Positions 15,776-39,272 of a DNA stretch of 63,493 nt are shown here, piece by piece. The notes under the pieces were generated by a model that saw nothing but the letters and a program-made list of their open reading frames with translations, did not search any database and was not told the DNA's origin. The position numbers and the translations under genes are program-made. The stretch is from Promethearchaeota archaeon (GTDB lineage: Archaea; Asgardarchaeota; Lokiarchaeia; Sigyniarchaeales; SOKP01): contig DAOUVJ010000001.1 in NCBI GenBank assembly GCA_030667705.1, forward strand, positions 1-63,493. Reading direction: 5' to 3'. Every line of letters begins with the position of its first letter. Positions within the stretch are counted from its first letter, which is position 1.

Positions 15776-17587
15776 TCAATTATTAACCATTTTAAATTTT
15801 AAACTTCCACAATCCCAAATTCTTGCATAATCTTCTTTATATTTTAAATTCAATCTGTGAATTCTTTTGAAACTTTTTATATACCAATAGTCAGGTTTTA
15901 TAATTTGTTCTAATTCAAAACCTAATTGATAATACAAACTTCCTTGAGACCATCTTTTATCCGCATAGGAAAAGATTTTTTCCCATTTATAATTTTTCTT
16001 GAAATAATTTAATAGTTTTCCAGCAATTCCCGGAACATGGAAATTTGAATTTGAACAAAATCTATTCAATGACCAAACTTTTTCCTTATTTTTAAAAGTC
16101 ATAACTGAAATTAATTTATTGTTATAGAAAGCTCCAAGTTTAATATTAGAATTATCATATCCTTGAATGTGATAATTATCTAAGAATTTATTTTTTACTT
16201 TTGAATTTATTTCTTTAATTTTACATTCTTCTTTGTGAATTCTTGTGCCCTTATTAATATTCAAAATATGTCTAATAAGAGATTTAACAATATCTTGTTT
16301 AAATACCCACTCATCCTCAAAAATATGAATTAGTTGAATTCCTAATTTTTTGCATAAATTAGTTTTATGTAAATGATAATTTGAAACTTTAAAATTATCT
16401 AATTTACGAGATTCCTTTAAAACTTTTTCAGAATGCCAATACAATCCATTAAATTCAAAAGCTATTTTTTTATCCGGAATAAATATATCAAGTTCAAGAG
16501 GATATAATAAAGATCTATTATTCACAATTATTTTATTTTTAATTTCATCTTTTATAAAATCAGATAATTCTTTTTCTTTTGAAGAAGATCTATAATTTAT
16601 TGGCGGTCTGCATTTTGGGCAAGTAAAACCCTGTTGAATTAAATTCCAAATTTGAATAAAATGATTTCCACATTTTATGCATTTCCAATTATGTTTATGA
16701 TAACAATTCTTATATTGTTTATCAAGAAGTTCTACATTAAATGAACTTAAAATCTTTTCTAAATATTTAGTAAAAACTTTTAACTTTGTTTCTTTAATTT
16801 TGTTTTTAATTATATCACATTGAGAAGGAATTTTAGTCCCATATTTATTTAAATTAGTCTTAACAATTTTGTCTTTTATTTTTTTAGTTTTAGAAGGATT
16901 GTCAACACCATAAATTTTCACCCAAGCTTTCTTTTTATTTTCCTTAACTATATCTGAACTATTTGGACTTTCAAATCCATATTTTTTTAATGAAGTTATT
17001 TTGCCTTTTTCTCTTACTTCTTTAGATGATAATGAAGATTTCCCTCCATATTTTTCTAAATTAGTCTTTATAACATTGTTTCTAATAATTTGGGATTTCA
17101 TTGGATGAACTTCACCCCAATTTTTTAAAGATGTTTCTCTATATTTATTTTGAATAGTCTTAAGTTGTTCAGGTTTTCCATTAAAATTTTTTCTATATGT
17201 TTCACTTTTTTTCTTTTTAACAATATCAGATTTACTAGCATTGTCTACACCTAACTTTATTATACATGATTCTTTGCATTTCTCTTTCACACTGTCAGCT
17301 TGAAAAACAAATCTCGTTCCATATTTTTCTAAAGATTTTTCTTCCTTTTTCTTTTTAACAAGATTGGATTTACTAACACAACCCGGACCGCAGTATTTAG
17401 AATAACCAGTTTTTAAACCCCTATAACTGGTTATTCTAATGCAGTTTTCATTTTGACAAATTCCTTCATTTGAATCTTTTTTAAGGAACTTATCAAAATA
17501 TTCTTTGGTAGTAAAGTTATGAGTTTTAAGATGTAGAGCAAGTTTTAAAGTATTTGAAAATTCACATTTGCATATTTCACATATCAT
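15776..17587 (-). CDS. free-standing homing endonuclease, Hef-like (paralog 2)
   Basis: 603 aa with the same architecture as 6580-8349: MICEICKCEFSNTLKLALHLKTH, repeats, WKCIKC...CPKC, LELDIFIPDKKIAFEFNGLYWHSE, ...RIWDCGSLKF. Confidence 0.65.
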   Translation of the reverse strand: MICEICKCEFSNTLKLALHLKTHNFTTKEYFDKFLKKDSNEGICQNENCIRITSYRGLKTGYSKYCGPGCVSKSNLVKKKKEEKSLEKYGTRFVFQADSVKEKCKESCIIKLGVDNASKSDIVKKKKSETYRKNFNGKPEQLKTIQNKYRETSLKNWGEVHPMKSQIIRNNVIKTNLEKYGGKSSLSSKEVREKGKITSLKKYGFESPNSSDIVKENKKKAWVKIYGVDNPSKTKKIKDKIVKTNLNKYGTKIPSQCDIIKNKIKETKLKVFTKYLEKILSSFNVELLDKQYKNCYHKHNWKCIKCGNHFIQIWNLIQQGFTCPKCRPPINYRSSSKEKELSDFIKDEIKNKIIVNNRSLLYPLELDIFIPDKKIAFEFNGLYWHSEKVLKESRKLDNFKVSNYHLHKTNLCKKLGIQLIHIFEDEWVFKQDIVKSLIRHILNINKGTRIHKEECKIKEINSKVKNKFLDNYHIQGYDNSNIKLGAFYNNKLISVMTFKNKEKVWSLNRFCSNSNFHVPGIAGKLLNYFKKNYKWEKIFSYADKRWSQGSLYYQLGFELEQIIKPDYWYIKSFKRIHRLNLKYKEDYARIWDCGSLKFKMVNN

Positions 17588-27772: not shown

Positions 27773-28666
27773 ATGAGTTATGTTATAAAGTTAACTAAAA
27801 AAGAATTAGTGAATCCACCTCCCCAAGTTGTCAAACAATTACAATATGAAGTTATTATGGGATCTTTTGCTTATGGGGTTTCAAGTGATATGAGCGATAT
27901 TGATTTGTATGGATTTTGTATTCCACAAAAAGATGTAATATTTCCCCACTTAAGAAAAGAAATAATTGGATTTGATAAACCTCAAAAAAGATTTGATCAA
28001 TTTCAACAACACCATATTATAGATAAATCCTGTAATCCGGTTAGAGAATATGATTTAGATATTTATAACATTGTTAAATATTTTCGTCTATGTGCAGATA
28101 ATAATCCAAATATGATAGATTCATTATTTGTTCCCATAAGATGTGTGACATATATTACTCCTATTGGAGAACTTGTTAGAGAAAATCGAAAACTTTTTCT
28201 TCATTGTGGGGCTTGGCATAAATTTAAAGGTTATGCATATTCACAGTTACATAAATTAAAAATTAAAAAACCAGATCCTAAAGGTAAAAGATTCTGGATG
28301 TATGAGAAATATGGATATGATGTGAAATTTGCATATCATGTAATTCGTTTGCTTGATGAAGTTCATCAAATTTTAACTGAGGGGGATATTGATCTTGAAA
28401 GAAATCGTGAACAATTAAAATCTGTTAGAAGAGGAGAATGGAAATTAGAAGATATTGAAGAACATTTTCAAAGAAATGAAAAAAAATTACAAAAATCATA
28501 TGATGAATGCAAACTTCCATATCGACCTGAAGAAGAGAAAATTAAAAATCTTCTTTTAAATTGTTTAGAACAACATTTTGGGAGTTTATCAAATGTCGTT
28601 CCTAAAGAAAATAAAACTAATGATTTCATACATGAATTAGAAAACTTGATTTTTGAATATAAATAA
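27773..28666 (+). CDS. Pol-beta-superfamily nucleotidyltransferase (RlaP/PF10127-like, tentative)
   Basis: MGSFAYGVSSDMSDIDLYGF matches the GS...G...SD.D NTase signature. The ATG at 27773 has a GGAAGTG SD; the tracked alternative start at 27755 has none. Confidence 0.55.
   Translation: MSYVIKLTKKELVNPPPQVVKQLQYEVIMGSFAYGVSSDMSDIDLYGFCIPQKDVIFPHLRKEIIGFDKPQKRFDQFQQHHIIDKSCNPVREYDLDIYNIVKYFRLCADNNPNMIDSLFVPIRCVTYITPIGELVRENRKLFLHCGAWHKFKGYAYSQLHKLKIKKPDPKGKRFWMYEKYGYDVKFAYHVIRLLDEVHQILTEGDIDLERNREQLKSVRRGEWKLEDIEEHFQRNEKKLQKSYDECKLPYRPEEEKIKNLLLNCLEQHFGSLSNVVPKENKTNDFIHELENLIFEYK
28628..28666 (+). repeat. direct repeat, copy 1 (3' end of the NTase gene)
   Basis: atacatgaattagaaaacttgatttttgaatataaata recurs at 29492-29530 with 1 mismatch. 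Confidence 0.8.
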
Positions 28667-28678
28667 AGGAAATTAAAA

Positions 28679-28975
28679 ATGAAAGCTTATGGAATTCCAA
28701 GAAATCAAGATGTTGCGGATCCTGATCTTGGAGATATGGCATTTTATGGTCTTGCTGCTGGAAGACTACACCCTAAATGGACTGCCAATGGGGATAGCAA
28801 AAGACGTGTTAGAAGATACTGGAAGAAAAGAGAAAGAAGAAAAGTTAGGAGAAAGACAGCTAATACTGTTCGTAAAAATATGGACATGGGCTTGGAGATC
28901 GTAAACGGAGGTGTTTATGAGAAAATATATTTTAGTAGTATTATGTGTTATACAATTGTGCGTCGGGTGTGCTAA
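28679..28975 (+). CDS. hypothetical highly basic protein
   Basis: 98-aa ORF, visibly G+C-richer than the surroundings, with an Arg/Lys-rich centre (KRRVRRYWKKRERRKVRRK). Its 3' end overlaps the next gene. Confidence 0.4.
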   Translation: MKAYGIPRNQDVADPDLGDMAFYGLAAGRLHPKWTANGDSKRRVRRYWKKRERRKVRRKTANTVRKNMDMGLEIVNGGVYEKIYFSSIMCYTIVRRVC

Positions 28976-29369
28976 TTACCCCGATAAGATACCGGCTGCG
29001 TATATATCACCATTAGTATACAAAAATTACACATGTGAAGAGCTCAGTAGAGAGTACAATAGATTAATATTGCAATGTTCAGCATTAACTATAATACAAA
29101 AGAAAGCTGCTGATCACGATTCTGCAGCGGTATGTATTGGGATAATATTTTTTCCGGTAATCCCAATGTCTGCTGATCGCGGGCATGAACTGGCACAAAT
29201 TAAAGGACAACGTAAAACTATTGAATACATAGCAATTGAAAGAAATTGTATGAAGTTAACAGAAACAATTGAAAGGATAAAGAAAGAAGAAGAAGAAGCT
29301 CTAAGAAAGATAGAAAAGGAAAGGAAAGAATGGAGGAGGATCCAGATGAGCCACGGAGAAGGGCTATAG
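28917..29369 (+). CDS. lipoprotein (lipobox-like LCVGC)
   Basis: GGAGGTG SD 6 nt upstream of the ATG at 28917 (the tracked start at 28911 is GTG). N-terminus MRKYILVVLCVIQLCVGC; coiled-coil C-terminus. Confidence 0.55.
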   Translation: MRKYILVVLCVIQLCVGCANYPDKIPAAYISPLVYKNYTCEELSREYNRLILQCSALTIIQKKAADHDSAAVCIGIIFFPVIPMSADRGHELAQIKGQRKTIEYIAIERNCMKLTETIERIKKEEEEALRKIEKERKEWRRIQMSHGEGL

Positions 29370-29491
29370 GTGTATAAGGAAGAAATGGTTATAACCAAGT
29401 GATATAACAATACAATGTCTATTATTACTTATTATAAAAAATGTTTTTGTTTGGAAAATCAATCACAATTTCTTATAACTACTGATAATTT

Positions 29492-29530
29492 TATACATGA
29501 ATTAGAAAACTTGATTTTTAAATATAAATA
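29492..29530 (+). repeat. direct repeat, copy 2 (non-coding duplicate of the NTase gene 3' end)
   Basis: See 28628-28666. Together the two copies bracket an ~825-bp G+C-richer segment. Confidence 0.8.
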
Positions 29531-29548: not shown

Positions 29549-29764
29549 ATGAAAATTGAAAAAATTCTATCCCAACACCGACGCGATTTTGAAGCCATTT
29601 ATATTTGTGAACATTGTAAATCTACAGAAAAAGATTCTGGTTATGATGATCAATTTTTCCATCAAGATGTGATTCCTAAAATGAAATGCAAGAAATGTGG
29701 CAAAATATCACCTGAAAATTATAGAGCATTAACAACTAAATATCCAGAAGGAATGACTGTTTAA
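29549..29764 (+). CDS. small Zn-ribbon protein
   Basis: 71 aa with CEHC...CKKC pairs. Confidence 0.45.
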   Translation: MKIEKILSQHRRDFEAIYICEHCKSTEKDSGYDDQFFHQDVIPKMKCKKCGKISPENYRALTTKYPEGMTV

Positions 29765-29797
29765 CTAATTTTTATTTATAAAAAAGAGGATTTAAAA

Positions 29798-30166
29798 ATG
29801 AAGATTAAAAAAGACTTTGTAACCAATTCAAGTTCTACTAGTTTTTTAATTTCAAATAAAACAAAAAACAAGAAAAAACTTAAAATTAAAATAGAGATGG
29901 AATATGATTTAAATAATTTAGTTGAGAAGGAAATAACTTCTTTGGCTGAATTTTATAATTCTGATCTCTATAAAGATAAATGTTGGTTATTAACAGATAA
30001 GCAAAAAAATAAATGTATCAAAATTTTAAAAAATGAAGGAACAATATTTCATATAGAAGCAGCAGACCATTATAATGAAGATCCAATTGAAAATATGATT
30101 TATGATGATGGTCTGGAGAAATTTATAGAAAATAATCCAGATCTTGAAATCATTGTTGGAGATTAA
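29798..30166 (+). CDS. MKIKxDFVTNSSS-family protein, tandem copy 1
   Basis: 122 aa with N-terminus MKIKKDFVTNSSSTSF. Confidence 0.65.
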   Translation: MKIKKDFVTNSSSTSFLISNKTKNKKKLKIKIEMEYDLNNLVEKEITSLAEFYNSDLYKDKCWLLTDKQKNKCIKILKNEGTIFHIEAADHYNEDPIENMIYDDGLEKFIENNPDLEIIVGD

Positions 30167-30201
30167 ATAGGCTACTAATAACTAAAAAAGAGGATTTAAA
30201 A

Positions 30202-30570
30202 ATGAAGATTAAAAAAGATTTCATAACAAACTCAAGTTCTACAAATTTTATACTTGCAAATAAAACAAAAAACAAGGAAAATCCTAGAATTAAAATAGAG
30301 TTGGAATATGATTTAACTAATTTATCTGAGGATAAAATAGCTTCTTTGGATGAATTCTATAATTCTGATCTTTATAAAGATGAACATTGGTTAATGTTAA
30401 CAGATGTACAAAAAAATAAATGCATCGAAATTTTAAAAAATGAAGGAACAATATTTAATATAGAGGTATCAAATGAAAATGATGATTTAATTGAAAATGA
30501 ATTGCATGTGAATGGGCTGGCGAAATTCATAAAAAATAATCCAGATCTTGAAATCATTGCTGAAGATTAA
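30202..30570 (+). CDS. MKIKxDFVTNSSS-family protein, tandem copy 2
   Basis: 122 aa with N-terminus MKIKKDFITNSSSTNF. Confidence 0.65.
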   Translation: MKIKKDFITNSSSTNFILANKTKNKENPRIKIELEYDLTNLSEDKIASLDEFYNSDLYKDEHWLMLTDVQKNKCIEILKNEGTIFNIEVSNENDDLIENELHVNGLAKFIKNNPDLEIIAED

Positions 30571-30605
30571 ATAGGCTGCTAATAAATAAAAATGAGGATT
30601 TAAAA

Positions 30606-30971
30606 ATGAAGATTAAAAAAGATTTTGTGACCAATTCAAGTTCTACAAGTTTTATACTTGCAAATAAAACAAAACGCGAGAAAAATCTTAAAATTAAAAT
30701 AGAAATGGAATATGATTTAAATAATTTAGTCGAGATGGAAATAACTTCTTTAGCTGAATTTTATAATTCTGATCTTTATAGAGATAATTATACATCAAGT
30801 GCACAAAGAAATAAATGTATAGAAATTTTAAAAAATGGAGGGATAATATATTATATACGGGCAACAACCTATAGTGACGATAATGATCCAATTGAAAATA
30901 TGATTTATGGGAATGGTCTGGAGAAATTTATAGAAAATAATCCAGTTCTTGAAATCATTGGTGAATGTTAA
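30606..30971 (+). CDS. MKIKxDFVTNSSS-family protein, tandem copy 3
   Basis: 121 aa with N-terminus MKIKKDFVTNSSSTSF. Confidence 0.65.
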   Translation: MKIKKDFVTNSSSTSFILANKTKREKNLKIKIEMEYDLNNLVEMEITSLAEFYNSDLYRDNYTSSAQRNKCIEILKNGGIIYYIRATTYSDDNDPIENMIYGNGLEKFIENNPVLEIIGEC

Positions 30972-31016
30972 AAATAGACTATTAATGAAGAAAACGAAAA
31001 AAGGAATTATTTAAAA

Positions 31017-31085
31017 ATGGAATCTAGAATGATAAAAGATGAAAAAGAACCAAAGATAAATATCTTCTGTTCCCATGGTTTATAA
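31017..31085 (+). pseudogene. duplicated 5' stub of the radical SAM gene
   Basis: MESRMIKDEKEPKINIF... compared with the radical SAM N-terminus MEARIIKDEKTNNIIF... At the DNA level, atggaa.ctagaat.ataaaagatgaaaaa is shared with 32026-32055. Confidence 0.55.
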
Positions 31086-31163
31086 AAGAATAAAAGAGGA
31101 TTTTTAAAGAGATAGATCTGAATTAAGAAAATATAACTTTTAACTAATTTAGAAAGGGGAATT

Positions 31164-31262
31164 ATGAAAACATGTGAAAGATGTGGAAAAGAATTTGAAG
31201 GGGTAACTAATGGAAGGTATTGTAAAGAATGCAAGATGGAGTTTATGAATTTGGATTTTTAA
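31164..31262 (+). CDS. possible 32-aa Zn-ribbon micro-protein
   Basis: MKTCERCGKEFEGVTNGRYCKECKMEFMNLDF, with AAGGGGA upstream. Confidence 0.3.
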   Translation: MKTCERCGKEFEGVTNGRYCKECKMEFMNLDF

Positions 31263-31388
31263 AAGAATAAAGGAAATAACGATTATGAATAAAAGGAACC
31301 AAATATGAAATTGGAGATAGTATTAACATAGAAGCAGTCAGATGTAACAAATCATTTACTATAACTGTAGAATTATAAAAGGAGAAAA

Positions 31389-31940
31389 ATGAAAACATTT
31401 ATAACAACATTAGTAATAACATTTTTTGGAGCATTAACCATGGTCAATGCCGCTGATTTCAGAAAAAGTGATTGGGGTATGACACAAGAACAAGTTAAAA
31501 ATACAGAAACATTAGAGATAAGTTCATCGACTAACAAAGGTTTGTGGTACGAATCCAAATTACTCGATAAAAAAGTAATGGTTTGCTATAAATTTATAGA
31601 TAATAAATTGGTCAGTGGAGCCTACCTCCTGGAGGAAGAAAATACAAATAATAACCTGTTCATAGATGACTATAATAATTTCAAAGAGGCATTAACCAAG
31701 AAATATGGAGAGCCTGAAAAAGATATAACACATTGGGACAGGAATTTATTTAAAGACATGCCTTCACATTGGGGAACGGCTATAGCTCTTGGCCAGCTGA
31801 GATATATAGCATATTGGAAGACACAAGATACAGAAATAATGGTAATGTTACACGGAGACGCTTTTGAAATAGATTGTAGCATTCTTTATTCCAGTATACA
31901 CCCGCAAAAGATGACAGAAGCAGAACTTGATGCTCTGTGA
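31389..31940 (+). CDS. secreted protein (signal peptide)
   Basis: MKTFITTLVITFFGALTMVNA-AD; AAGGAG SD. Visibly G+C-richer than the neighbouring genes. Confidence 0.55.
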   Translation: MKTFITTLVITFFGALTMVNAADFRKSDWGMTQEQVKNTETLEISSSTNKGLWYESKLLDKKVMVCYKFIDNKLVSGAYLLEEENTNNNLFIDDYNNFKEALTKKYGEPEKDITHWDRNLFKDMPSHWGTAIALGQLRYIAYWKTQDTEIMVMLHGDAFEIDCSILYSSIHPQKMTEAELDAL

Positions 31941-32025
31941 ACCTAAATAATTTAGTGATTTACTGGGAAAGTCGCAACTTTATAAACAATATGTAAGGCT
32001 GAAAAACATCAAAGAAAGGAATCAA

Positions 32026-33063
32026 ATGGAAGCTAGAATAATAAAAGATGAAAAAACAAATAATATAATTTTTGGGTATTTTGATAAAATATTTAAAAAT
32101 GATAATTACGAATTATTATTTAATACAAAAACTGGAGTGGAAGTTCTGCAGGAAATTATTGGAAACGATGATCCATTTATGACAGAACTTCCAACTATGT
32201 TAGATTGTGGAATTATGGGACACTGTAAAAACAATTGTGAATTTTGTTATCAGGGAGATAAATATCAAGAAAATATGAAATTAGAAGATTTTAAACAAAT
32301 TATTGATGAGTTAAAATATCATACAAATCAAGTAGCATTGGGAGGAAGGGGGAATCCAGAAGACCATGAAAATTTTGAAGAAATATTGAAATATTCAAGA
32401 GAGAGTGGGGTGGTTCCTAATTATACTTCAGCTGGAAATAATATCACTCCAGAAATAGTAAAAATTTCAAAAAAATATTGTGGAGCCGTTGCAATTTCAT
32501 TTTATGATAAACCCTTCACATATAAAGCTTTAGATATGTTTATTAATGGAGGAGTTAAAACTAATATTCATTTAATATATTCTTCAATGAGTCATGATTT
32601 AGCAATGAGAATTTTGAATGGTGAAGATGTTTGGAATAATAAAATTAATTTAGAAAAATTAAATGCTATAGTATTTCTTCTTTTTAAACCAAAAGGGAAA
32701 GGTGCTAATCTTCCAGAATGGTTTCCTTCAAAAAATCAAATAAAAGAATTTGGTGAATTAATAGGAAATGCAAAGACTAAATTTAAAATTGGAGCAGATT
32801 CATGTCTTATAAATCATGTTTTAAAATTTGCAAATTTTAGTGAGCAACAAAGAATGTCAGTCGACACTTGTGAATCTGGAAGAATGTCAGTATATATAAC
32901 TCCAGATATGAAACTTGTTCCATGTTCATTTGCTGATCATGATAAATATGGCCGGGATATTAAAAATCATAAAATCAAAGAAGTTTGGCATAATTCAGAA
33001 CCTTTTCAAAAATTTAGAGAAATATTAAAAAAGAATGCAGATTGCTGCCCTGCATTATATTAA
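32026..33063 (+). CDS. radical SAM enzyme with C-terminal SPASM/twitch-like Cys cluster
   Basis: 345 aa. CX3CX2C at GHCKNNCEFCYQG. C-terminal CESGRMSVYITPDMKLVPC...DCCP cysteines. Confidence 0.7.
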   Translation: MEARIIKDEKTNNIIFGYFDKIFKNDNYELLFNTKTGVEVLQEIIGNDDPFMTELPTMLDCGIMGHCKNNCEFCYQGDKYQENMKLEDFKQIIDELKYHTNQVALGGRGNPEDHENFEEILKYSRESGVVPNYTSAGNNITPEIVKISKKYCGAVAISFYDKPFTYKALDMFINGGVKTNIHLIYSSMSHDLAMRILNGEDVWNNKINLEKLNAIVFLLFKPKGKGANLPEWFPSKNQIKEFGELIGNAKTKFKIGADSCLINHVLKFANFSEQQRMSVDTCESGRMSVYITPDMKLVPCSFADHDKYGRDIKNHKIKEVWHNSEPFQKFREILKKNADCCPALY

Positions 33064-33095
33064 AAGATTAATCCTATAAAAAAGGATATTAGAAA

Positions 33096-33677
33096 ATGAA
33101 AATTAAAACAGATTTTGTGACAAATAGCTCAAGCACAAATTATATAATAAGTGAAGAATATTCATCCGGAGATCCATACAGTCCAGTAGATCAAAACTTT
33201 ACATATTTAAATTTCAAAAATATAACCAACAATTTCATAAATACAGTAGAATCTATTTTACCTACTAGGAACTTTTCAGAATTGAATATACATTCAATAA
33301 AAGAAGATGACGTTATAATTTGTTTATTTGGTAGTGTGGAAAAATTAGAATTTGAATCTGCAGTATTTTCTAATTATAATTTCATATTTAAATTAGACAG
33401 GTTTTTAAGTTTTTATTCTACATATACTACATTCCAAAATATAATCGATGTAGAATTTGCCATGAATAGATTAGTTTCTAAATTTTTTAAAAAAGTGTTT
33501 TCGGTTGAAAATATTTCTTTATTGATGCATTCAAGAAAAGTTACTGATTTTTCTGGAGATGGGTGGAATAGTGGAGATCCATGTTTTGGTCATTATGGGG
33601 AAACATCAATATGTCAAGAAGCCGTAAATATACTAGAAAAATCATCATTACATAAAGGAGAATTTATTAGAAAATGA
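33096..33677 (+). CDS. MKIKxDFVTNSSS-family protein, divergent member 4
   Basis: 193 aa with N-terminus MKIKTDFVTNSSSTNY. The rest is unrelated by eye to members 1-3. Confidence 0.6.
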   Translation: MKIKTDFVTNSSSTNYIISEEYSSGDPYSPVDQNFTYLNFKNITNNFINTVESILPTRNFSELNIHSIKEDDVIICLFGSVEKLEFESAVFSNYNFIFKLDRFLSFYSTYTTFQNIIDVEFAMNRLVSKFFKKVFSVENISLLMHSRKVTDFSGDGWNSGDPCFGHYGETSICQEAVNILEKSSLHKGEFIRK

Positions 33678-34195
33678 AAATTAAAACAGATTTTGTAACA
33701 AATAGTTCAAGCACAAATTATATGTTTATTTTTAAAGGAAATACAAAAGAAGAATTGTATACAATATTAAAAAAATATTCTGACTCTTTTAATCTTGAAC
33801 ATGAAGATTATGATAAAACAAAATCTAATATTACAGTGAAGGATATCATAGATTCAATTGAAGAATGTATTGACCAGATCCTACCAGATTATGTAGTAAG
33901 TGTAAAAATTAAGCCAATTGATATTCTAATTGAAAAAATTAGAAAAATTAAAAAATCATATGAGAACCATGATGATAATGATTGGTATGACGAAATTATT
34001 ATGCGATATTTAAAATTATATGATTCAACTAAAACTGCAAAGAAAATTGGTTTAAATTCTTATTTGGAAATTGAATTTGGAGATAATGATGGACATATAT
34101 GTGGCGGAAGAATTGGAGATACAATGGACTATGAGGGGAGGCATATTCGCTTAAGTAATGATGAAATTATGCTATTAACAGATGGGATGAGATAA
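33674..34195 (+). CDS. MKIKxDFVTNSSS-family protein, divergent member 5
   Basis: 173 aa with N-terminus MKIKTDFVTNSSSTNY. It overlaps the previous gene by ATGA. Confidence 0.6.
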   Translation: MKIKTDFVTNSSSTNYMFIFKGNTKEELYTILKKYSDSFNLEHEDYDKTKSNITVKDIIDSIEECIDQILPDYVVSVKIKPIDILIEKIRKIKKSYENHDDNDWYDEIIMRYLKLYDSTKTAKKIGLNSYLEIEFGDNDGHICGGRIGDTMDYEGRHIRLSNDEIMLLTDGMR

Positions 34196-34225
34196 CAATT
34201 TTTGAAAAGGAGAATTTATAATATA

Positions 34226-34624
34226 ATGAAAATTAAAATGGATTTTGTGACAAATAGTTCTTCATGTTCTTTTGTATTCTTAGGTTTTGAAATGAAAAAG
34301 AGTGATATGTCATTTCGTGATCTAATTAAAAAAATATTTCCATTAAAAAATTTCAAAGAATATAAAGAAAATGAATATGAAGAACTATTTTATGAGTTAG
34401 TTTATGATCAAAAGGATTTTGATATTTTATATGATCAAGAAGATGGAAGCATATCAGATGATATTTGTTTAATTGGATATGAGCTTCTGACTATCTCTGA
34501 TGAGGATTGGAGTTATAATGAAGTTCCAATTTTAGATTATATTGAAAAAGTTAAAATACTTCGAACAAAATTTGAAGGAAATCAGAGTCTTATTAAAATT
34601 TATGGATCAATGAGAATGTGTTAA
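34226..34624 (+). CDS. MKIKxDFVTNSSS-family protein, divergent member 6
   Basis: The ATG at 34226 is preceded by AAAGGAG (the tracked 34202 start is TTG). N-terminus MKIKMDFVTNSSSCSF. Confidence 0.6.
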   Translation: MKIKMDFVTNSSSCSFVFLGFEMKKSDMSFRDLIKKIFPLKNFKEYKENEYEELFYELVYDQKDFDILYDQEDGSISDDICLIGYELLTISDEDWSYNEVPILDYIEKVKILRTKFEGNQSLIKIYGSMRMC

Positions 34625-34648
34625 CAATTTTTAAAAGGGAAAAAGAAT

Positions 34649-34879
34649 ATGAAAAAGCTGGACGAATTAATTGTAGTAATAATAGGAATTCTTGTTGGAG
34701 TTTTAATCTTAACAATTGGAGCATATTACGTTCATAAAGATTTTCAAATATCACAATCTATAAAAAATGGGAAGAATCCTGTCTCGATAGGCATAGCATT
34801 TGATAATTCTTATGCTAACCATGAAAAAATGATTTATCTCTTAAAAGAAAAATTCGAAGAGTCAAATAATTCTAAATAG
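34649..34879 (+). CDS. small single-pass membrane protein
   Basis: 76 aa with TM segment LIVVIIGILVGVLILTIGAYYV. Confidence 0.5.
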   Translation: MKKLDELIVVIIGILVGVLILTIGAYYVHKDFQISQSIKNGKNPVSIGIAFDNSYANHEKMIYLLKEKFEESNNSK

Positions 34880-34893
34880 AGATGAGATTATAT

Positions 34894-34945
34894 ATTTAGA
34901 CATCCTTTATAAAATACGAACTATTAAAATGAAGGATGTCTAAAT
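34894..34945 (+). terminator. long hairpin ending the radical-SAM cluster
   Basis: 14-bp perfect stem atttagacatcctt / aaggatgtctaaat with a 24-nt loop. Confidence 0.45.
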
Positions 34946-34998
34946 ATTATGAAAAGGAGATAAAAATATAATTCATGTGTTAGATTTTGGAGGATTTT

Positions 34999-37337: not shown

Positions 37338-39272
37338 TTATTTAATAAAGAAGTTCAATTCGATTTTTTCTAAAATTCTCACTGGCGTAAGGGTAATGTC
37401 CACTGCACATGTCTTTCGTTTTTTCATATAATCTGTGCTATACACACTCACTTCATAAGAATCTAATCCTCTTCTCTGTTTAATATTCTCCAAAAATTCA
37501 ACTATTTCTCCATTTATCAGATCCCAAGTAATAGAATCATTTTGTTCAAATGGAAAAAATTTACAGAAATTACTTATTGCTTTTTGACAATATAAAACTA
37601 ATCTTACAATGTTTAAATCCTGAAGAGCACTCGGTTTAGCTTGAGCAGTCAATTGCCCCCAAAGTGTATTGCCCTCAAGGAATTTTACTATTGGATTTAA
37701 TTGTTTCAGATACATACTATCTCTTTCACCTATTTTTGGACTATATCTCAATTCTTTAATAGAATCAATCGCTCCCCGAGTAAAACCAGCCGCAGCATAC
37801 CAAATCTCACCCACTGCATCATTTCTCGGTAACAAATAAGCCATATGGTAACATGGAGAAAACCATACATCTTGTCCAGTAAATGTATCATAAACTTTAT
37901 TATAAGATTCATAAAGAGCAACAAAATAATTATTAAAATTATGAGTATTTAATCTTGCGTCATATGCAAGAGTAAAAGATGCATTATCTCCATTATCCAA
38001 AATTCCTACACAATCTCTTCTGGTTGTAACTAAAGTATTAATTGAAGTTTTTACGTCGGTTGGATATCCACAATCAAATACTAAATTAAAATTAAGAAAT
38101 TCAGTATCTAAAATACTATCATCAATATTTCCTGCATATCCGCTACTAAGAAGCTGAGTGGCTATCGTAGTATTAAGACTTCCATCTGCATTTTTTAATT
38201 CTCCATCTGAACCTTTTTTCAATGGAGCCGGTTCTGAAATAACAAAAGGTTGAGAAATATTTGCAAAGTTCTTTTTAATAGTATAAACTATATCTGTAGA
38301 ATCTTCATCAAATAAAGAAACGCTATCATTCCAACCCCTTGATGTCAATGATCTATCTTGATAAACTGCACAAGATTCATTATCATCTCCGGAAGAAATT
38401 CCCAGCCATCCCCAAATTTTATTTCCTGTTCCGTCAACGGCAGTAATTACATATCTGGCAGATCCTAAAGATTGTTCCCAATCAGTAAAAACTTGTTTAT
38501 TATCTGTAATTAAAGCGGTCGCTCCATCTTTATCAAGTGAAATTGTTCCAATATTTTTATCAAAAACTTTAACAGCAATATCATATCCGTCAGACCAATC
38601 TTCATTTGTTTTTGACATATCTGCTCTGAGAACAGAAGAATATGAATTTAAAATATATTCAATAAAAAGTGAATCTCCGGCAGTGTCAACCGCATTTGGA
38701 TCAAAAGAAACATCAAAAGATTCTATAATAACATCATCTCCATCACTTTGTTTTTCATAGATATCTATCACATATACAGAGCTTATCATTGGGTTAGAGT
38801 ATTCTGATAATCTAACACCAATATTATTATAATATTCTCCCCTTCCAATTGGATATAAGAAACACAGAGCTTCAGAATTTGATGTAATATCTGAATCAAT
38901 TTCTACTTTTGTATTTATATCATCAACATAAGTAATAGAGATTGTTGCAGTCGAGTCAACAGTTTCGGCAGCATCTATTCTTATATTAGAAAAAGATGCA
39001 TTATCTGGAAGACAACGCATAAAGAAAGCAGAGCCGCTTTCTCCGAGGAAATTGTACATAGAATATAATCCCTGGCCATAGTTTTTGCCGTAATGGGAAA
39101 TATTAGGTTCTCCCCATTTTGAAATTAAATCTGATCTTCCCCCAACAAACATTAATTCATTATCGGGACCTTTCTCAGTCAATGCACATACAAGTCCGGT
39201 ACTTGCAGGAACAGCTTGTAAATAAGTACTGAGGTCTATAATTTTAACGTAAACACCTGGTGAAATAGCCAT
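37338..39272 (-). CDS. tail sheath protein (T4 gp18-like)
   Basis: 644 aa. N-terminus MAISPGVYVKIIDLS...GLVCALTEKGPDNELMFVGGRSDLISKWGEP, and C-terminus ...LNPIVKFLEGNTLWGQLT...LNIVRLVLY; both are typical of contractile sheath proteins. AAGGAG SD. Confidence 0.8.
   Translation of the reverse strand: MAISPGVYVKIIDLSTYLQAVPASTGLVCALTEKGPDNELMFVGGRSDLISKWGEPNISHYGKNYGQGLYSMYNFLGESGSAFFMRCLPDNASFSNIRIDAAETVDSTATISITYVDDINTKVEIDSDITSNSEALCFLYPIGRGEYYNNIGVRLSEYSNPMISSVYVIDIYEKQSDGDDVIIESFDVSFDPNAVDTAGDSLFIEYILNSYSSVLRADMSKTNEDWSDGYDIAVKVFDKNIGTISLDKDGATALITDNKQVFTDWEQSLGSARYVITAVDGTGNKIWGWLGISSGDDNESCAVYQDRSLTSRGWNDSVSLFDEDSTDIVYTIKKNFANISQPFVISEPAPLKKGSDGELKNADGSLNTTIATQLLSSGYAGNIDDSILDTEFLNFNLVFDCGYPTDVKTSINTLVTTRRDCVGILDNGDNASFTLAYDARLNTHNFNNYFVALYESYNKVYDTFTGQDVWFSPCYHMAYLLPRNDAVGEIWYAAAGFTRGAIDSIKELRYSPKIGERDSMYLKQLNPIVKFLEGNTLWGQLTAQAKPSALQDLNIVRLVLYCQKAISNFCKFFPFEQNDSITWDLINGEIVEFLENIKQRRGLDSYEVSVYSTDYMKKRKTCAVDITLTPVRILEKIELNFFIK

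What the first reader, a model, noticed from the sequence alone, without database searches (positions are those of the whole stretch)
29549..34879. Radical SAM (SPASM/twitch-like) gene embedded among six paralogs sharing an invariant N-terminal MKIKxDF(V/I)TNSSS motif: candidate phage protein/peptide-modification system
Seen in the sequence: six same-strand ORFs (29798, 30202, 30606, 33096, 33674, 34226) all begin M-K-I-K-x-D-F-(V/I)-T-N-S-S-S-(T/C)-(S/N)-(F/Y). The first three (121-122 aa) form an exact 404-bp-period tandem array and are similar along their whole length. The last three (132-193 aa) keep only the 16-residue N-terminus and diverge completely afterwards, so selection appears to act on the motif itself. 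Between the two trios lies a radical SAM gene with CX3CX2C (GHCKNNCEFCYQG) and a C-terminal Cys cluster (CESG...LVPC...CCP). A Zn-ribbon ORF precedes the array, and a TM micro-protein plus a strong hairpin close it. Spacing is tight, with an ATGA overlap at 33674. Established knowledge: SPASM/twitch radical SAM enzymes typically modify peptides or proteins encoded next to them, and multi-copy precursor genes with a conserved recognition region and variable remainder are the hallmark of such loci. Inference: the Ser-rich N-terminal motif may be the recognition or modification site. The substrate size (121-193 aa) and the N-terminal, near-start-codon position of the conserved block do not match any RiPP class I know. 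The context is a phage accessory block. It could therefore be an undescribed system, for example diversified modified effector or anti-defence proteins.
Basis: partly seen in the sequence, partly recalled or inferred. Interest (0 to 1): 0.85.

Follow-up and report, generated by a model that had tools for sequence, protein, structure and literature searches.

The report
Radical SAM enzyme with N-terminally tagged proteins
A phage radical SAM enzyme sits among six proteins that share only an invariant 13-16-residue N-terminal tag, and the same uncharacterised enzyme-plus-tagged-protein pair recurs in hundreds of phages and, next to a STAND NTPase, in defence islands of many bacterial phyla.

Summary
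Six + strand genes start MKIKxDF[VI]TNSSS and flank a radical SAM gene (32026-33063).

Tools show this is a widespread, unannotated module, not a local oddity.
- 53 of 80 phage loci found through the enzyme carry 1-7 tagged genes, nearly all on the same strand just downstream.
- 55 of 64 loci found through the tag alone carry the enzyme. Seven of the nine exceptions are truncated contigs.
- In about 40 of 50 loci from diverse bacterial phyla, a ~135-aa tagged gene lies directly upstream of the enzyme. The operon also holds a STAND-like NTPase and an untagged paralog, and sits among defence genes.

The 288 tagged proteins held fall into 53 BLAST-unrelated clusters. None matches Pfam, NCBIfam or PADLOC. 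The enzyme's nearest structures are peptide and protein maturases (SuiB, CteB, SkfB, anSME).

Best reading: the enzyme recognises, and probably modifies, the tag. This resembles RiPP maturation but acts on folded proteins. The chemistry is unknown. About a third of the enzyme-seeded phage loci have no tagged gene nearby.

Verdict: new variant of a known kind, high interest.

The parts
29798..30166 (+). Tagged protein, 122 aa, copy 1 of the tandem trio. Phage counterpart of the bacterial ~135-aa core partner.
   Evidence: Starts MKIKKDFVTNSSSTSF. Lies in the 404-bp tandem array. Residues 21+ of its cluster align with the bacterial core family (hhalign 49%, E 1.7e-4; co-linear alignment A5).
30202..30570 (+). 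Tagged protein, 122 aa, copy 2 of the tandem trio.
   Evidence: Starts MKIKKDFITNSSSTNF. 70% identical to copy 1.
30606..30971 (+). Tagged protein, 121 aa, copy 3 of the tandem trio.
   Evidence: Starts MKIKKDFVTNSSSTSF. 74% identical to copy 1.
32026..33063 (+). Radical SAM enzyme, 345 aa. It has an N-terminal five-strand beta domain, a CX3CX2C core and a truncated SPASM (twitch-like) C-terminus with one auxiliary-cluster set of cysteines (C260, C282, C300, C341).
   Evidence: Pfam Radical_SAM and SPASM above threshold. 998 homologs, the top 120 at least 50% identical. Cys pattern compared with full-SPASM homologs. AF2 pLDDT 93.4. Foldseek best hits are SuiB, CteB, TigE, SkfB, anSME and PqqE.
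33096..33677 (+). Tagged protein, 193 aa. BLAST singleton among held loci. Shares a GDGWNSGDP-type Gly/Asp motif with a 194-232-aa tagged cluster.
   Evidence: Starts MKIKTDFVTNSSSTNY. Singleton in clustering. Motif comparison.
33674..34195 (+). Tagged protein, 173 aa. Member of a conserved full-length family with a second invariant block FGDNDG...MDYEGR. Fold unmatched.
   Evidence: 35 homolog clusters with 82-100% coverage (34 of them at least 97%). AF2 pLDDT 89 with residues 1-9 below 50. No PDB or BFVD match.
34226..34624 (+). Tagged protein, 132 aa. Member of a family that usually ends in ...R(M/L/T)C.
   Evidence: Starts MKIKMDFVTNSSSCSF. 7-member cluster, 6 of which end in Cys. Ortholog in L001.

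Best explanation
The locus is the phage form of a widespread two-component protein-maturation module. It consists of a radical SAM enzyme of the SPASM/twitch peptide-maturase type and one or more client proteins.

Each client starts, from Met1, with the tag MK-x-[KR]-x-D-F-[VI]-T-N-S-S-S. Proposed mechanism:
- The exposed N-terminal tail (MKxKxDFV) docks on the enzyme, plausibly on its family-specific N-terminal beta domain.
- The invariant polar stretch T-N-S-S-S is placed at the SAM/[4Fe-4S] site.
- The 5'-deoxyadenosyl radical then abstracts a hydrogen to oxidise or cross-link a residue of the tag.

One enzyme thus serves many unrelated protein bodies, much as one RiPP maturase serves many precursors with a shared leader.

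In bacteria the module has a single client and sits in a STAND-NTPase operon in defence islands. It may therefore mature an immune effector. Phages carry the enzyme with 0-7 diversified clients, six in this window.

Shown: the gene linkage in both directions and in several genomic contexts; the modularity of the tag; and the enzyme's structural class.

Inferred: docking, covalent modification, and any role in defence or counter-defence.
For: Linkage from the enzyme side: 53 of 80 IMG/VR loci seeded with the enzyme carry tagged ORFs, nearly all on the same strand just downstream, with the nearest usually starting 10-500 nt after the enzyme's stop.

Linkage from the tag side: 55 of 64 new IMG/VR loci seeded only with a 22-residue tag profile carry the enzyme upstream on the same strand. 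Seven of the nine exceptions are contig-truncated.

Independent genomic contexts:
- A T4-like synteny of RlaP, enzyme and tail sheath.
- Phage loci with no sheath gene nearby: a clade with the tag variant MKIR and an enzyme only 37-45% identical, plus L006 and similar loci whose enzyme is 51-54% identical and whose tag reads MKxK.
- Bacterial chromosomes.
- L200, where a membrane protein gene, the enzyme and a 479-aa tagged protein lie together.

Bacterial form: in about 40 of 50 loci from Clostridia, Bacteroidales, Sulfurimonas, Nitrospiraceae, Planctomycetia, Omnitrophota, Tissierella and others, the tagged gene overlaps or abuts the enzyme gene.

Modularity of the tag:
- 288 distinct tagged proteins form 53 BLAST clusters. 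Profile comparison of residues 21+ finds almost no relation between clusters.
- The bacterial operon encodes an untagged paralog of the tagged body (hhalign 97%, E 1.2e-10). It keeps strand 1 but lacks MKIKxDFVTNSSS.

The tag always starts at Met1. Its serine codons switch between TCN and AGY. It is modelled as unstructured (pLDDT below 50 for residues 1-9) in an otherwise confident model.

Enzyme class:
- PDB profile hits are SuiB and SkfB.
- Foldseek ranks SuiB (E 2e-13, TM 0.64-0.68), CteB, TigE, SkfB, anSME and PqqE ahead of BtrN, viperin and DesII.
- The N-terminal domain motif F[ND]xxxGxxxR..[DE]PF..PxLD is conserved in every clade.

Precedent: the HXS antiphage system, in which the radical SAM enzymes HxsB and HxsC mature the protein effector HxsA (PMC13128918).
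Against: No modification has been observed; everything rests on gene neighbourhood and fold class.

27 of 80 enzyme-seeded phage loci have no tagged gene within the DNA held (up to 10 kb each side); in the 20 inspected the enzyme gene is followed by the convergent sheath gene, directly or after one to three untagged ORFs. The enzyme must then have another substrate, or distant clients.

A few tagged arrays (L137, L138, L158) have no enzyme gene within 10 kb.

No PqqD-type RRE domain was detected by Pfam.

Eight of 53 clusters, including the two largest phage ones, share a second motif G[DE]x[DEN]G near the C-terminus, against 1.2% of control ORFs. In those families the TNSSS loop could be part of a ligand or active site rather than a pure tag.

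The conserved region sits at the extreme N-terminus of folded 90-230-aa proteins. No known RiPP class looks like this.
Confidence: 0.5

Rival explanations
1. Docking-adaptor model. The tag is a non-covalent handle that binds the radical SAM enzyme, as an F-box binds Skp1. The variable bodies recruit different targets (host or phage proteins, nucleic acids or metabolites) for radical chemistry. The tag itself is not modified.
For: The linkage evidence is the same as for the best explanation. Bodies are extremely diverse but each is conserved within its family, as expected for target-recognition modules. The enzyme persists without adjacent clients in a third of the enzyme-seeded phage loci. The tagged/untagged paralog pair in bacteria could be a heterodimeric adaptor.
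Against: No adaptor-dependent radical SAM enzyme is known (own knowledge). The invariant part of the tag is the small polar run T-N-S-S-S, which looks more like a reaction site than a binding epitope. The nearest structural relatives all modify the peptide they bind.
Confidence: 0.2
2. Same-pathway protein family. The tagged proteins are divergent members of one small fold. In that fold the TNSSS loop after the N-terminal tail, together with an acidic G-D-x-D-G loop, forms a ligand- or metal-binding or catalytic site. They act on, or bind, a small molecule made by the radical SAM enzyme.
For: A second motif G[DE]x[DEN]G lies about 30 residues from the C-terminus in 8 of 53 clusters, against 1.2% of control ORFs. 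The 173-aa family has many invariant polar residues (N10, S11-13, T14, D137, N138, D152, Y153, R156). The bacterial core and the window trio share an acidic SD[ND][DE] loop.
Against: 45 of 53 clusters lack the second motif. Profile comparisons find no common body. The untagged paralog keeps the body but drops exactly the tag. Residues 1-9 are not packed in the model. The enzyme ranks with peptide and protein maturases rather than small-molecule enzymes.
Confidence: 0.12
3. Capsid-targeting sequence. As with T4 internal proteins IPI, IPII and IPIII, the shared N-terminus directs diverse small proteins into the prohead for injection. The neighbouring radical SAM gene is incidental.
For: The window is a myovirus with T4-type baseplate and sheath genes. 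T4 IPs start MKTYQEFIAE and MKTFKEFTSTTTPVS, which resembles MKIKKDFVTNSSS at M1, K2, [ED]6 and F7, followed by a Ser/Thr-rich run. Copy number is hypervariable, like T4 IP loci (T4 comparison from own knowledge).
Against: The identical tag occurs in bacterial chromosomal operons with a STAND NTPase and no virion genes. The tag tracks the enzyme across contexts that lack structural genes. There is no (L/I)xE prohead-protease site after the tag. The tag runs straight into strand 1 of the fold.
Confidence: 0.03
4. No functional link. Tagged genes and the enzyme are neighbours only through inherited synteny in one phage lineage or a shared insertion hot spot.
For: Most enzyme-seeded loci belong to one clade with the order RlaP, enzyme, sheath. 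A third of them lack tagged genes.
Against: The adjacency is kept when the surroundings change completely: the MKIR clade, L006, bacterial operons in many phyla, and L200. It also holds down to 31-38% enzyme identity.
Confidence: 0.02

Closest known systems
RiPP radical SAM/SPASM-twitch maturases with leader-bearing precursors (SuiB-SuiA streptide, CteB, SkfB, PqqE, MftC). The one-enzyme-many-precursors logic of prochlorosins is cited from own knowledge.
   Same: The enzyme has the same architecture: a radical SAM core plus a C-terminal auxiliary-cluster domain. These are its best structural and profile matches. A conserved recognition segment is shared by several adjacent substrate genes with variable remainders.
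   Different: The clients are folded proteins of 90-230 aa (one of 479 aa), not short peptides. The conserved segment is the first 13-16 residues starting at Met1, and it may be both handle and reaction site. No RRE (PqqD) domain was detected. No protease or exporter is encoded nearby. All NCBIfam maturase models score far below their cut-offs.
Radical SAM/SPASM enzymes that mature whole proteins: anaerobic sulfatase-maturing enzyme (Ser/Cys to formylglycine) and QhpD (thioether links in QhpC)
   Same: A SPASM-type enzyme acts on a specific short motif near the N-terminus of a protein. anSME is among the top Foldseek hits. A serine-rich target is plausible.
   Different: The sulfatase motif (C/S)xPxR is absent. 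The clients are not sulfatases or amine dehydrogenase subunits. The window enzyme has only one auxiliary-cluster set of cysteines.
HXS antiphage system (HxsB/HxsC radical SAM enzymes maturing the effector HxsA; PMC13128918)
   Same: It is a bacterial defence-context operon in which a radical SAM enzyme matures a protein effector, including processing at the N-terminus.
   Different: HXS has two radical SAM enzymes, HxsD, and His-Xaa-Ser repeats. Here there is one enzyme and a Met1-anchored TNSSS tag, with a STAND NTPase and an untagged paralog in bacteria. The window enzyme scores 17.5 bits on HxsC against a cut-off of 267.9.
T4 internal proteins with capsid-targeting sequence
   Same: Diverse small phage proteins in variable arrays share an MK...[ED]F N-terminus.
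   Different: The tag is far more invariant, is linked to a radical SAM enzyme, lacks the protease site, and occurs in bacterial operons.
Avs/STAND (NLR-like) antiphage systems
   Same: The bacterial form of the module lies in an operon led by a 690-844-aa STAND-type NTPase (PADLOC Avs2 2e-24; faint Pfam NPHP3_N/nSTAND3). It sits beside Avs1, McrBC and restriction-modification genes.
   Different: The NTPase lacks the N-terminal effector region of the Avs2 profile; the match starts at profile position 267. None of the phage loci fetched, nor the window, encodes the NTPase. No defence activity has been tested.

Membership tests
Radical SAM superfamily (PF04055) | CX3CX2C (or variant) motif binding the SAM-cleaving [4Fe-4S] cluster within a partial TIM barrel | tested here: met
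   C67-x3-C71-x2-C74, invariant in 40 homologs. Pfam 30.9 bits against a cut-off of 29.5. The AF2 model shows alternating beta/alpha core elements.
SPASM domain (PF13186 / TIGR04085) | Seven-Cys pattern CX9-15GX4C ... CX2CX5CX3C ... C binding two auxiliary clusters | tested here: inconclusive
   Pfam SPASM scores 27.5 bits against 21.5. However, the window enzyme ends at ...CCPALY and keeps only C260, C282, C300 and C341, so it is twitch-like with one cluster. Bacterial and MKIR-clade homologs carry the full CX2CX5CX3C...C set.
RiPP precursor/maturase systems | Short precursor peptide with a leader recognised by an RRE (PqqD-like) domain and a separate core that is modified and released | tested here: not met
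   The clients are 121-193-aa proteins, and the one modelled (173 aa) folds confidently. No PqqD/RRE hit was found in the enzyme; it has a five-strand N-terminal beta domain instead. No protease or transporter gene is in the block.
Anaerobic sulfatase-maturing enzyme system | Substrate motif (C/S)-x-(P/A)-x-R in a sulfatase; enzyme with two auxiliary clusters | tested here: not met
   No such motif is present in any of the six clients. No anSME model appears among the NCBIfam hits. The enzyme has a single auxiliary-cluster Cys set.
His-Xaa-Ser (HXS) system | Paired radical SAM enzymes HxsB and HxsC, HxsD, and an HxsA effector with HxS repeats | tested here: not met
   HxsC model scores 17.5 bits against a cut-off of 267.9. 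There is only one radical SAM gene and no HxS repeats.
Non-peptide radical SAM families (QueE, NrdG, viperin, MoaA, BioB) | Score above the curated family cut-off | tested here: not met
   NrdG 15.1 bits against 126; viperin 21.1 against 180; BioB 14.1 against 225; QueE is not listed. By Foldseek these families rank below the peptide maturases.
T4-type capsid-targeting sequence proteins | N-terminal CTS followed by an (L/I)xE prohead-protease site; restricted to virions | tested here: not met
   The resemblance is limited to M1, K2, [ED]6 and F7. There is no LxE site after the tag. The tag is present in bacterial chromosomal operons. Virion packaging cannot be tested here.
Avs/STAND defence system | STAND NTPase sensor gene in the locus | tested here: not met
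   tblastn with three bacterial NTPases finds nothing in the window or in any of the phage loci fetched. The NTPase is present only in the bacterial form of the module.
Tagged-protein/radical SAM module described here (no published name found) | Enzyme with the N-terminal F[ND]xxxG...[DE]PF...PxLD domain, plus at least one adjacent same-strand gene starting MKx[KR]xDF[VI]TNSSS | tested here: met
   The window has both features. The same pair occurs in 53 of 80, 55 of 64 and about 40 of 50 loci in the three scans.

The most novel reading that the evidence does not exclude
The Met1-anchored tag MKx[KR]xDF[VI]TNSSS is the substrate of a previously undescribed radical SAM protein modification, either oxidation or cross-linking of the Thr/Asn/Ser run. 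The cross-link might reach the conserved C-terminal His, Trp, Tyr or Cys residue that many families carry.

In bacteria this modification would arm the effector of a new STAND-NTPase immune system. Phages would have captured the enzyme and expanded the tag onto dozens of unrelated protein bodies as diversified effectors or counter-defence proteins.
Probability: 0.35. Interest if true: 0.9.

Novelty: new variant of a known kind. Interest (0 to 1): 0.8.

Why it matters
If the enzyme does modify the tag, this is a new class of radical SAM protein maturation. A 13-residue N-terminal tag would be portable across more than 50 unrelated folded proteins. That is of interest for enzymology and as a possible protein-engineering handle.

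The bacterial form is a candidate, unnamed antiphage system: a conserved operon of STAND NTPase, untagged paralog, tagged protein and radical SAM enzyme. It lies in defence islands across many phyla and matches no PADLOC, Pfam or NCBIfam family. It follows the recently shown HXS principle of a radical-SAM-matured protein effector.

The phage expansions, up to seven clients per locus, suggest the module is used in phage-host or phage-phage conflict.

The finding turns a set of hypothetical proteins into a directly testable enzyme-substrate hypothesis.

Tried and rejected
- DNA similarity of the block to GenBank phages: only the Zn-ribbon ORF matched.
- tblastn of the 173-aa and 167-aa clients against 50,697 phage records: no match. 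A 31-residue tag query gave only chance hits, probably because of low-complexity masking.
- First IMG/VR scan with the single enzyme sequence: nothing. It succeeded only with an alignment.
- Fold searches of the 173-aa model against PDB and BFVD: nothing below E = 0.1.
- Pfam, NCBIfam and PADLOC on clients: no family. PHROGs gave only phrog_7397, function unknown.
- Literature searches for TNSSS with radical SAM, radical SAM with STAND/SPASM/anti-phage, nSTAND3, and phage-encoded RiPP: no description of this module.
- RB16/RB43-type coliphage radical SAM (30% identical, phrog_7293): no tagged neighbours in RB16, so not the same module.
- Capsid-targeting-sequence idea: rejected because of the bacterial distribution.
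- The idea that bacterial operon gene 'A' is related to the clients: rejected.
- Terminator scan: no canonical terminator on the + strand at the end of the block.
- A complex model of enzyme plus tag could not be run with the tools available.

Full report
**1. Observation**

The six + strand ORFs are present exactly as described, and each begins MKIK[KTM]DF[VI]TNSSS[TC][SN][FY]. Their coordinates are 29798-30166, 30202-30570, 30606-30971, 33096-33677, 33674-34195 and 34226-34624. A regular-expression scan of all six frames finds the motif nowhere else in the window.

The first three genes are a 404-bp tandem array of 3.0 copies with 82% matches. Their proteins are 70-74% identical.

The NSSS serines are encoded TCA-AGT-TCT in the trio. 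In the other three genes they are AGC-TCA-AGC, AGT-TCA-AGC and AGT-TCT-TCA. Conservation is therefore at the protein level and is not a shared DNA cassette.

The gene at 32026-33063 passes Pfam's thresholds for Radical_SAM and SPASM and has C67-x3-C71-x2-C74.

- the Zn-ribbon ORF 29549-29764, matching phrog_14808;
- a 76-aa TM ORF at 34649-34879;
- a 19-nt-arm hairpin at 34892-34947.

Homologs of the two flanking ORFs do not travel with the module in the related loci: the TM ORF has none, and the Zn-ribbon ORF has one, about 8.5 kb from the enzyme in L123.

The window is a myovirus fragment. It encodes a tail sheath (37338-39272, minus strand), a baseplate wedge protein, a tRNA nucleotidyltransferase and an RlaP-type nucleotidyltransferase.

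**2. The enzyme**

It belongs to a large, well-conserved and unnamed family: 998 hits, with the best 120 at least 50% identical. Every curated NCBIfam model scores far below its cut-off, including NirJ2, MftC, PqqE, HxsC, viperin and NrdG. PHROGs gives phrog_7293, function unknown.

A profile of 40 homologs finds only SuiB and SkfB among solved structures, at E of about 3-5e-4.

An AlphaFold2 model (pLDDT 93.4) shows a five-strand N-terminal beta domain (residues 2-43), the radical SAM core and a C-terminal helical/hairpin domain.

Foldseek ranks the peptide and protein maturases first:
- SuiB: E 2e-13, TM 0.64-0.68
- then CteB, TigE, SkfB, anSME and PqqE
- BtrN, viperin, DesII and BlsE come lower.

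The window enzyme and its T4-like clade are truncated. They end at ...CCPALY and keep four conserved cysteines (C260, C282, C300, C341), enough for one auxiliary cluster. Bacterial homologs and a second phage clade keep the full SPASM CX2CX5CX3C...C set. The N-terminal domain motif F[ND]xxxGxxxR...[DE]PF...PxLD is conserved in all clades.

**3. The tagged proteins**

None of the six, nor 41 representatives from related loci, matches any Pfam, NCBIfam or PADLOC family. Seven of the 41 hit phrog_7397, function unknown.

The 173-aa protein has 35 homolog clusters, 34 of them covering at least 97% of it. They share the N-terminal block DFVTNSSSTxFxFxFKG and a second invariant block FGDNDG..GG..G..MDYEGR. 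Its model is confident (pLDDT 89) except for residues 1-9, which fall below 50. It has no structural neighbour in PDB or BFVD.

Across all loci fetched I collected 288 distinct tagged proteins. After removing the first 20 residues they fall into 53 BLAST clusters. Profile-profile comparison of nine clusters detects only one related pair.

The tag always starts at Met1. K2, [KR]4, D6, F7 and F/Y16 are nearly invariant, although the search pattern fixed only part of the motif.

Two further regularities emerged:
- The very last residue is W, Y, H or C in 19 of 53 clusters, against 13% of control ORFs (p = 3e-5). The largest cluster (70 members) always ends in His. The bacterial core ends in Trp in 34 of 39 members.
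- A G[DE]x[DEN]G motif about 30 residues from the C-terminus occurs in 8 of 53 clusters, against 1.2% of controls.

**4. Linkage of tag and enzyme**

Seeding IMG/VR with the enzyme alignment gave 80 loci (49-63% identity). Of these, 53 carry 1-7 tagged genes, nearly all on the same strand just downstream.

Seeding with a 22-residue tag profile gave 64 new loci. Of these, 55 carry the enzyme upstream on the same strand. Seven of the nine exceptions are cut by a contig end. Two (L137, L138) are genuine within 10 kb each side.

The association survives changes of surroundings:
- Most loci share the order tRNA nucleotidyltransferase, RlaP, enzyme, (clients), then a convergent sheath gene.
- A clade with the tag variant MKIR and an enzyme only 37-45% identical has 3-7 clients and no sheath gene nearby.
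- L006 sits among topoisomerase, ligase and helicase genes.

The counter-observation is that 27 of the 80 enzyme-seeded loci have no tagged gene. In the 20 of these I inspected, the enzyme gene is followed by the convergent sheath gene, either directly or after one to three untagged ORFs. In some, the ORF that follows resembles the body of a tagged family but lacks the tag (E about 1e-3).

**5. Bacteria**

A scan of one genome per GTDB species with the tag profile returned 50 loci from many phyla. They include chromosomal contigs of 2.8-6.4 Mb and the isolate Tissierella praeacuta DSM 18095. In about 40 of them a ~135-aa gene starting MKIKxDFVTNSSST[SCN]F lies immediately upstream of, often overlapping, a full-SPASM homolog of the enzyme that is 31-38% identical.

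This family is large: 1078 clusters at E up to 10, with all named members called 'hypothetical'. It is the counterpart of the window's 122-aa trio (hhalign on residues 21+ gives E 1.7e-4, and the alignment is co-linear).

The pair is part of a conserved operon. A 690-844-aa STAND-type NTPase comes first (PADLOC Avs2 2e-24, missing the N-terminal effector region of that profile; faint NPHP3_N/nSTAND3). An unrelated ~131-aa protein follows, sometimes fused to the NTPase. Then comes a ~130-140-aa protein 'B', then the tagged protein, then the enzyme.

'B' is an untagged paralog of the tagged protein's body (hhalign 97%, E 1.2e-10). It keeps strand 1 but has unrelated residues in place of MKIKxDFVTNSSS.

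All five neighbourhoods inspected contain defence or mobile-element genes:
- Avs1a/Avs1b;
- PLD-SNF2 plus an MmeI-type methyltransferase;
- McrB/McrC plus an AAA_15/21 ATPase;
- Eco57I/N6_Mtase with three integrases;
- HATPase_c_3 with trypsin, and SMEK/CTD10/MC6.

None of the phage loci fetched, nor the window, encodes the NTPase, 'A' or 'B'.

**6. Interpretation**

Three things are shown:
- There is a two-way, cross-context, cross-domain gene linkage between one radical SAM subfamily and a Met1-anchored 13-16-residue tag.
- The tag is modular: it appears on unrelated bodies, and tagged and untagged paralogs exist.
- The enzyme belongs structurally with peptide and protein maturases.

The inference is that the tail MKxKxDFV docks on the enzyme and the invariant TNSSS run is the site of radical chemistry. 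Precedents for radical SAM action on whole proteins are anSME and QhpD (own knowledge) and the HXS antiphage system (PMC13128918). Kaur et al. (PMC7159879) describe other radical SAM/SPASM-plus-peptide modules attached to NTP-dependent conflict systems, but with a different peptide motif (FxSxx).

I put the maturation model at 0.5. The rivals are:
- a non-covalent adaptor model (0.2);
- a same-pathway ligand-binding family (0.12);
- a T4-style capsid-targeting sequence (0.03), which has a real resemblance to IPI (MKTFKEFTSTTTP) but is contradicted by the bacterial operons;
- mere synteny (0.02).

**7. Novelty and verdict**

I found no family model and no paper for either component or for the bacterial operon. 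The logic of one maturase serving several tagged substrates is known. Four things are new: the client type, the position and invariance of the tag, the phage expansions, and the STAND-operon context. I therefore rate it a new variant of a known kind, with interest 0.8.

Its interpretation is partly supported: the coupling is strong, but the chemistry and biological role are untested, and the system is not confined to phages.

Noticed in passing
window 28616-28665 and 29481-29530: A 50-nt direct repeat (92% identical) duplicates the 3' end of the RlaP-like gene and brackets an 865-bp insert carrying ORFs 28679-28975 and 28911-29369. In the close relative L001 the RlaP gene is followed directly by the 122-aa tagged gene. 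This looks like an insertion with target duplication or a recombination scar.
   Followed up: partly
window 29549-29764: The 71-aa Zn-ribbon ORF (phrog_14808, E 1e-34) is 68-76% identical at the DNA level to hypothetical genes of Streptococcus thermophilus/oralis phages and Yersinia phage phiR1-RT. That is an unusually wide host spread for a small gene. It is not linked to the module.
   Followed up: partly
tagged proteins of all loci (e.g. window 34226-34624 ends ...MRMC; L022 3136-3639 ends ...ISHH): The last residue of tagged proteins is enriched in His, Trp, Tyr and Cys: 19 of 53 clusters against 13% of controls (p = 3e-5). The largest cluster always ends in His and the bacterial core usually ends in Trp. 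This could mark a partner residue for a cross-link to the tag.
   Followed up: partly
L188 9576-10004; L203 7605-7997; L206 7603-8004: The bacterial operon gene immediately upstream of the tagged gene is an untagged paralog of the tagged protein's body (hhalign 97%, E 1.2e-10).
   Followed up: yes
L188 7387-11457; L203 5116-9441; L210 6069-10423; L212 6132-10435: A conserved bacterial operon (STAND-type NTPase, small proteins, tagged protein, radical SAM/SPASM enzyme) lies in defence-island surroundings. It is a candidate unnamed antiphage system. PADLOC recognises only a weak Avs2-like NTPase core.
   Followed up: partly
L099, L121, L143, L200, L156 (radical SAM genes): The cluster-binding Cys motif has non-canonical spacing in the MKIR phage clade and some bacterial homologs (for example C-AHGKSGL-C-IKSGVE-C). 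The window enzyme and the STAND-operon homologs have CX3CX2C.
   Followed up: no
L200 8044-11440: In a Tepidanaerobacteraceae MAG the enzyme is preceded by a 294-aa multi-pass membrane protein and followed by a 479-aa tagged protein that is coiled-coil and Gly/Ala/Lys-rich. No NTPase is present. This is a third architecture of the module.
   Followed up: no
L007 (Escherichia phage RB16 90403-91557) and 171 other Pseudotevenvirus-like records: A 30%-identical radical SAM gene (phrog_7293) is conserved in RB16/RB43/Miro-type coliphages. In RB16, the one record inspected, there are no tagged neighbours. Its substrate is unknown.
   Followed up: partly
window 31164-31262 and 31389-31940: Two genes lie between the trio and the enzyme: a 32-aa CxxC...CxxC micro-ORF and a 183-aa protein with an N-terminal signal-like hydrophobic segment. 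The 183-aa gene is absent from the related loci, so it is probably unrelated cargo; the micro-ORF was not compared.
   Followed up: no
window 15776-17587 (-): A 603-aa HNH/homing-endonuclease-like gene (phrog_3339, E 8e-108) is embedded in the baseplate/tail gene region.
   Followed up: no
L005 11098-11529; L048, L058, L034, L064 (first ORF after the enzyme): In some loci that have the enzyme but no tagged genes, the ORF just downstream weakly resembles the body of a tagged family (E about 1e-3) but starts without the tag. This suggests tag loss or gain.
   Followed up: partly
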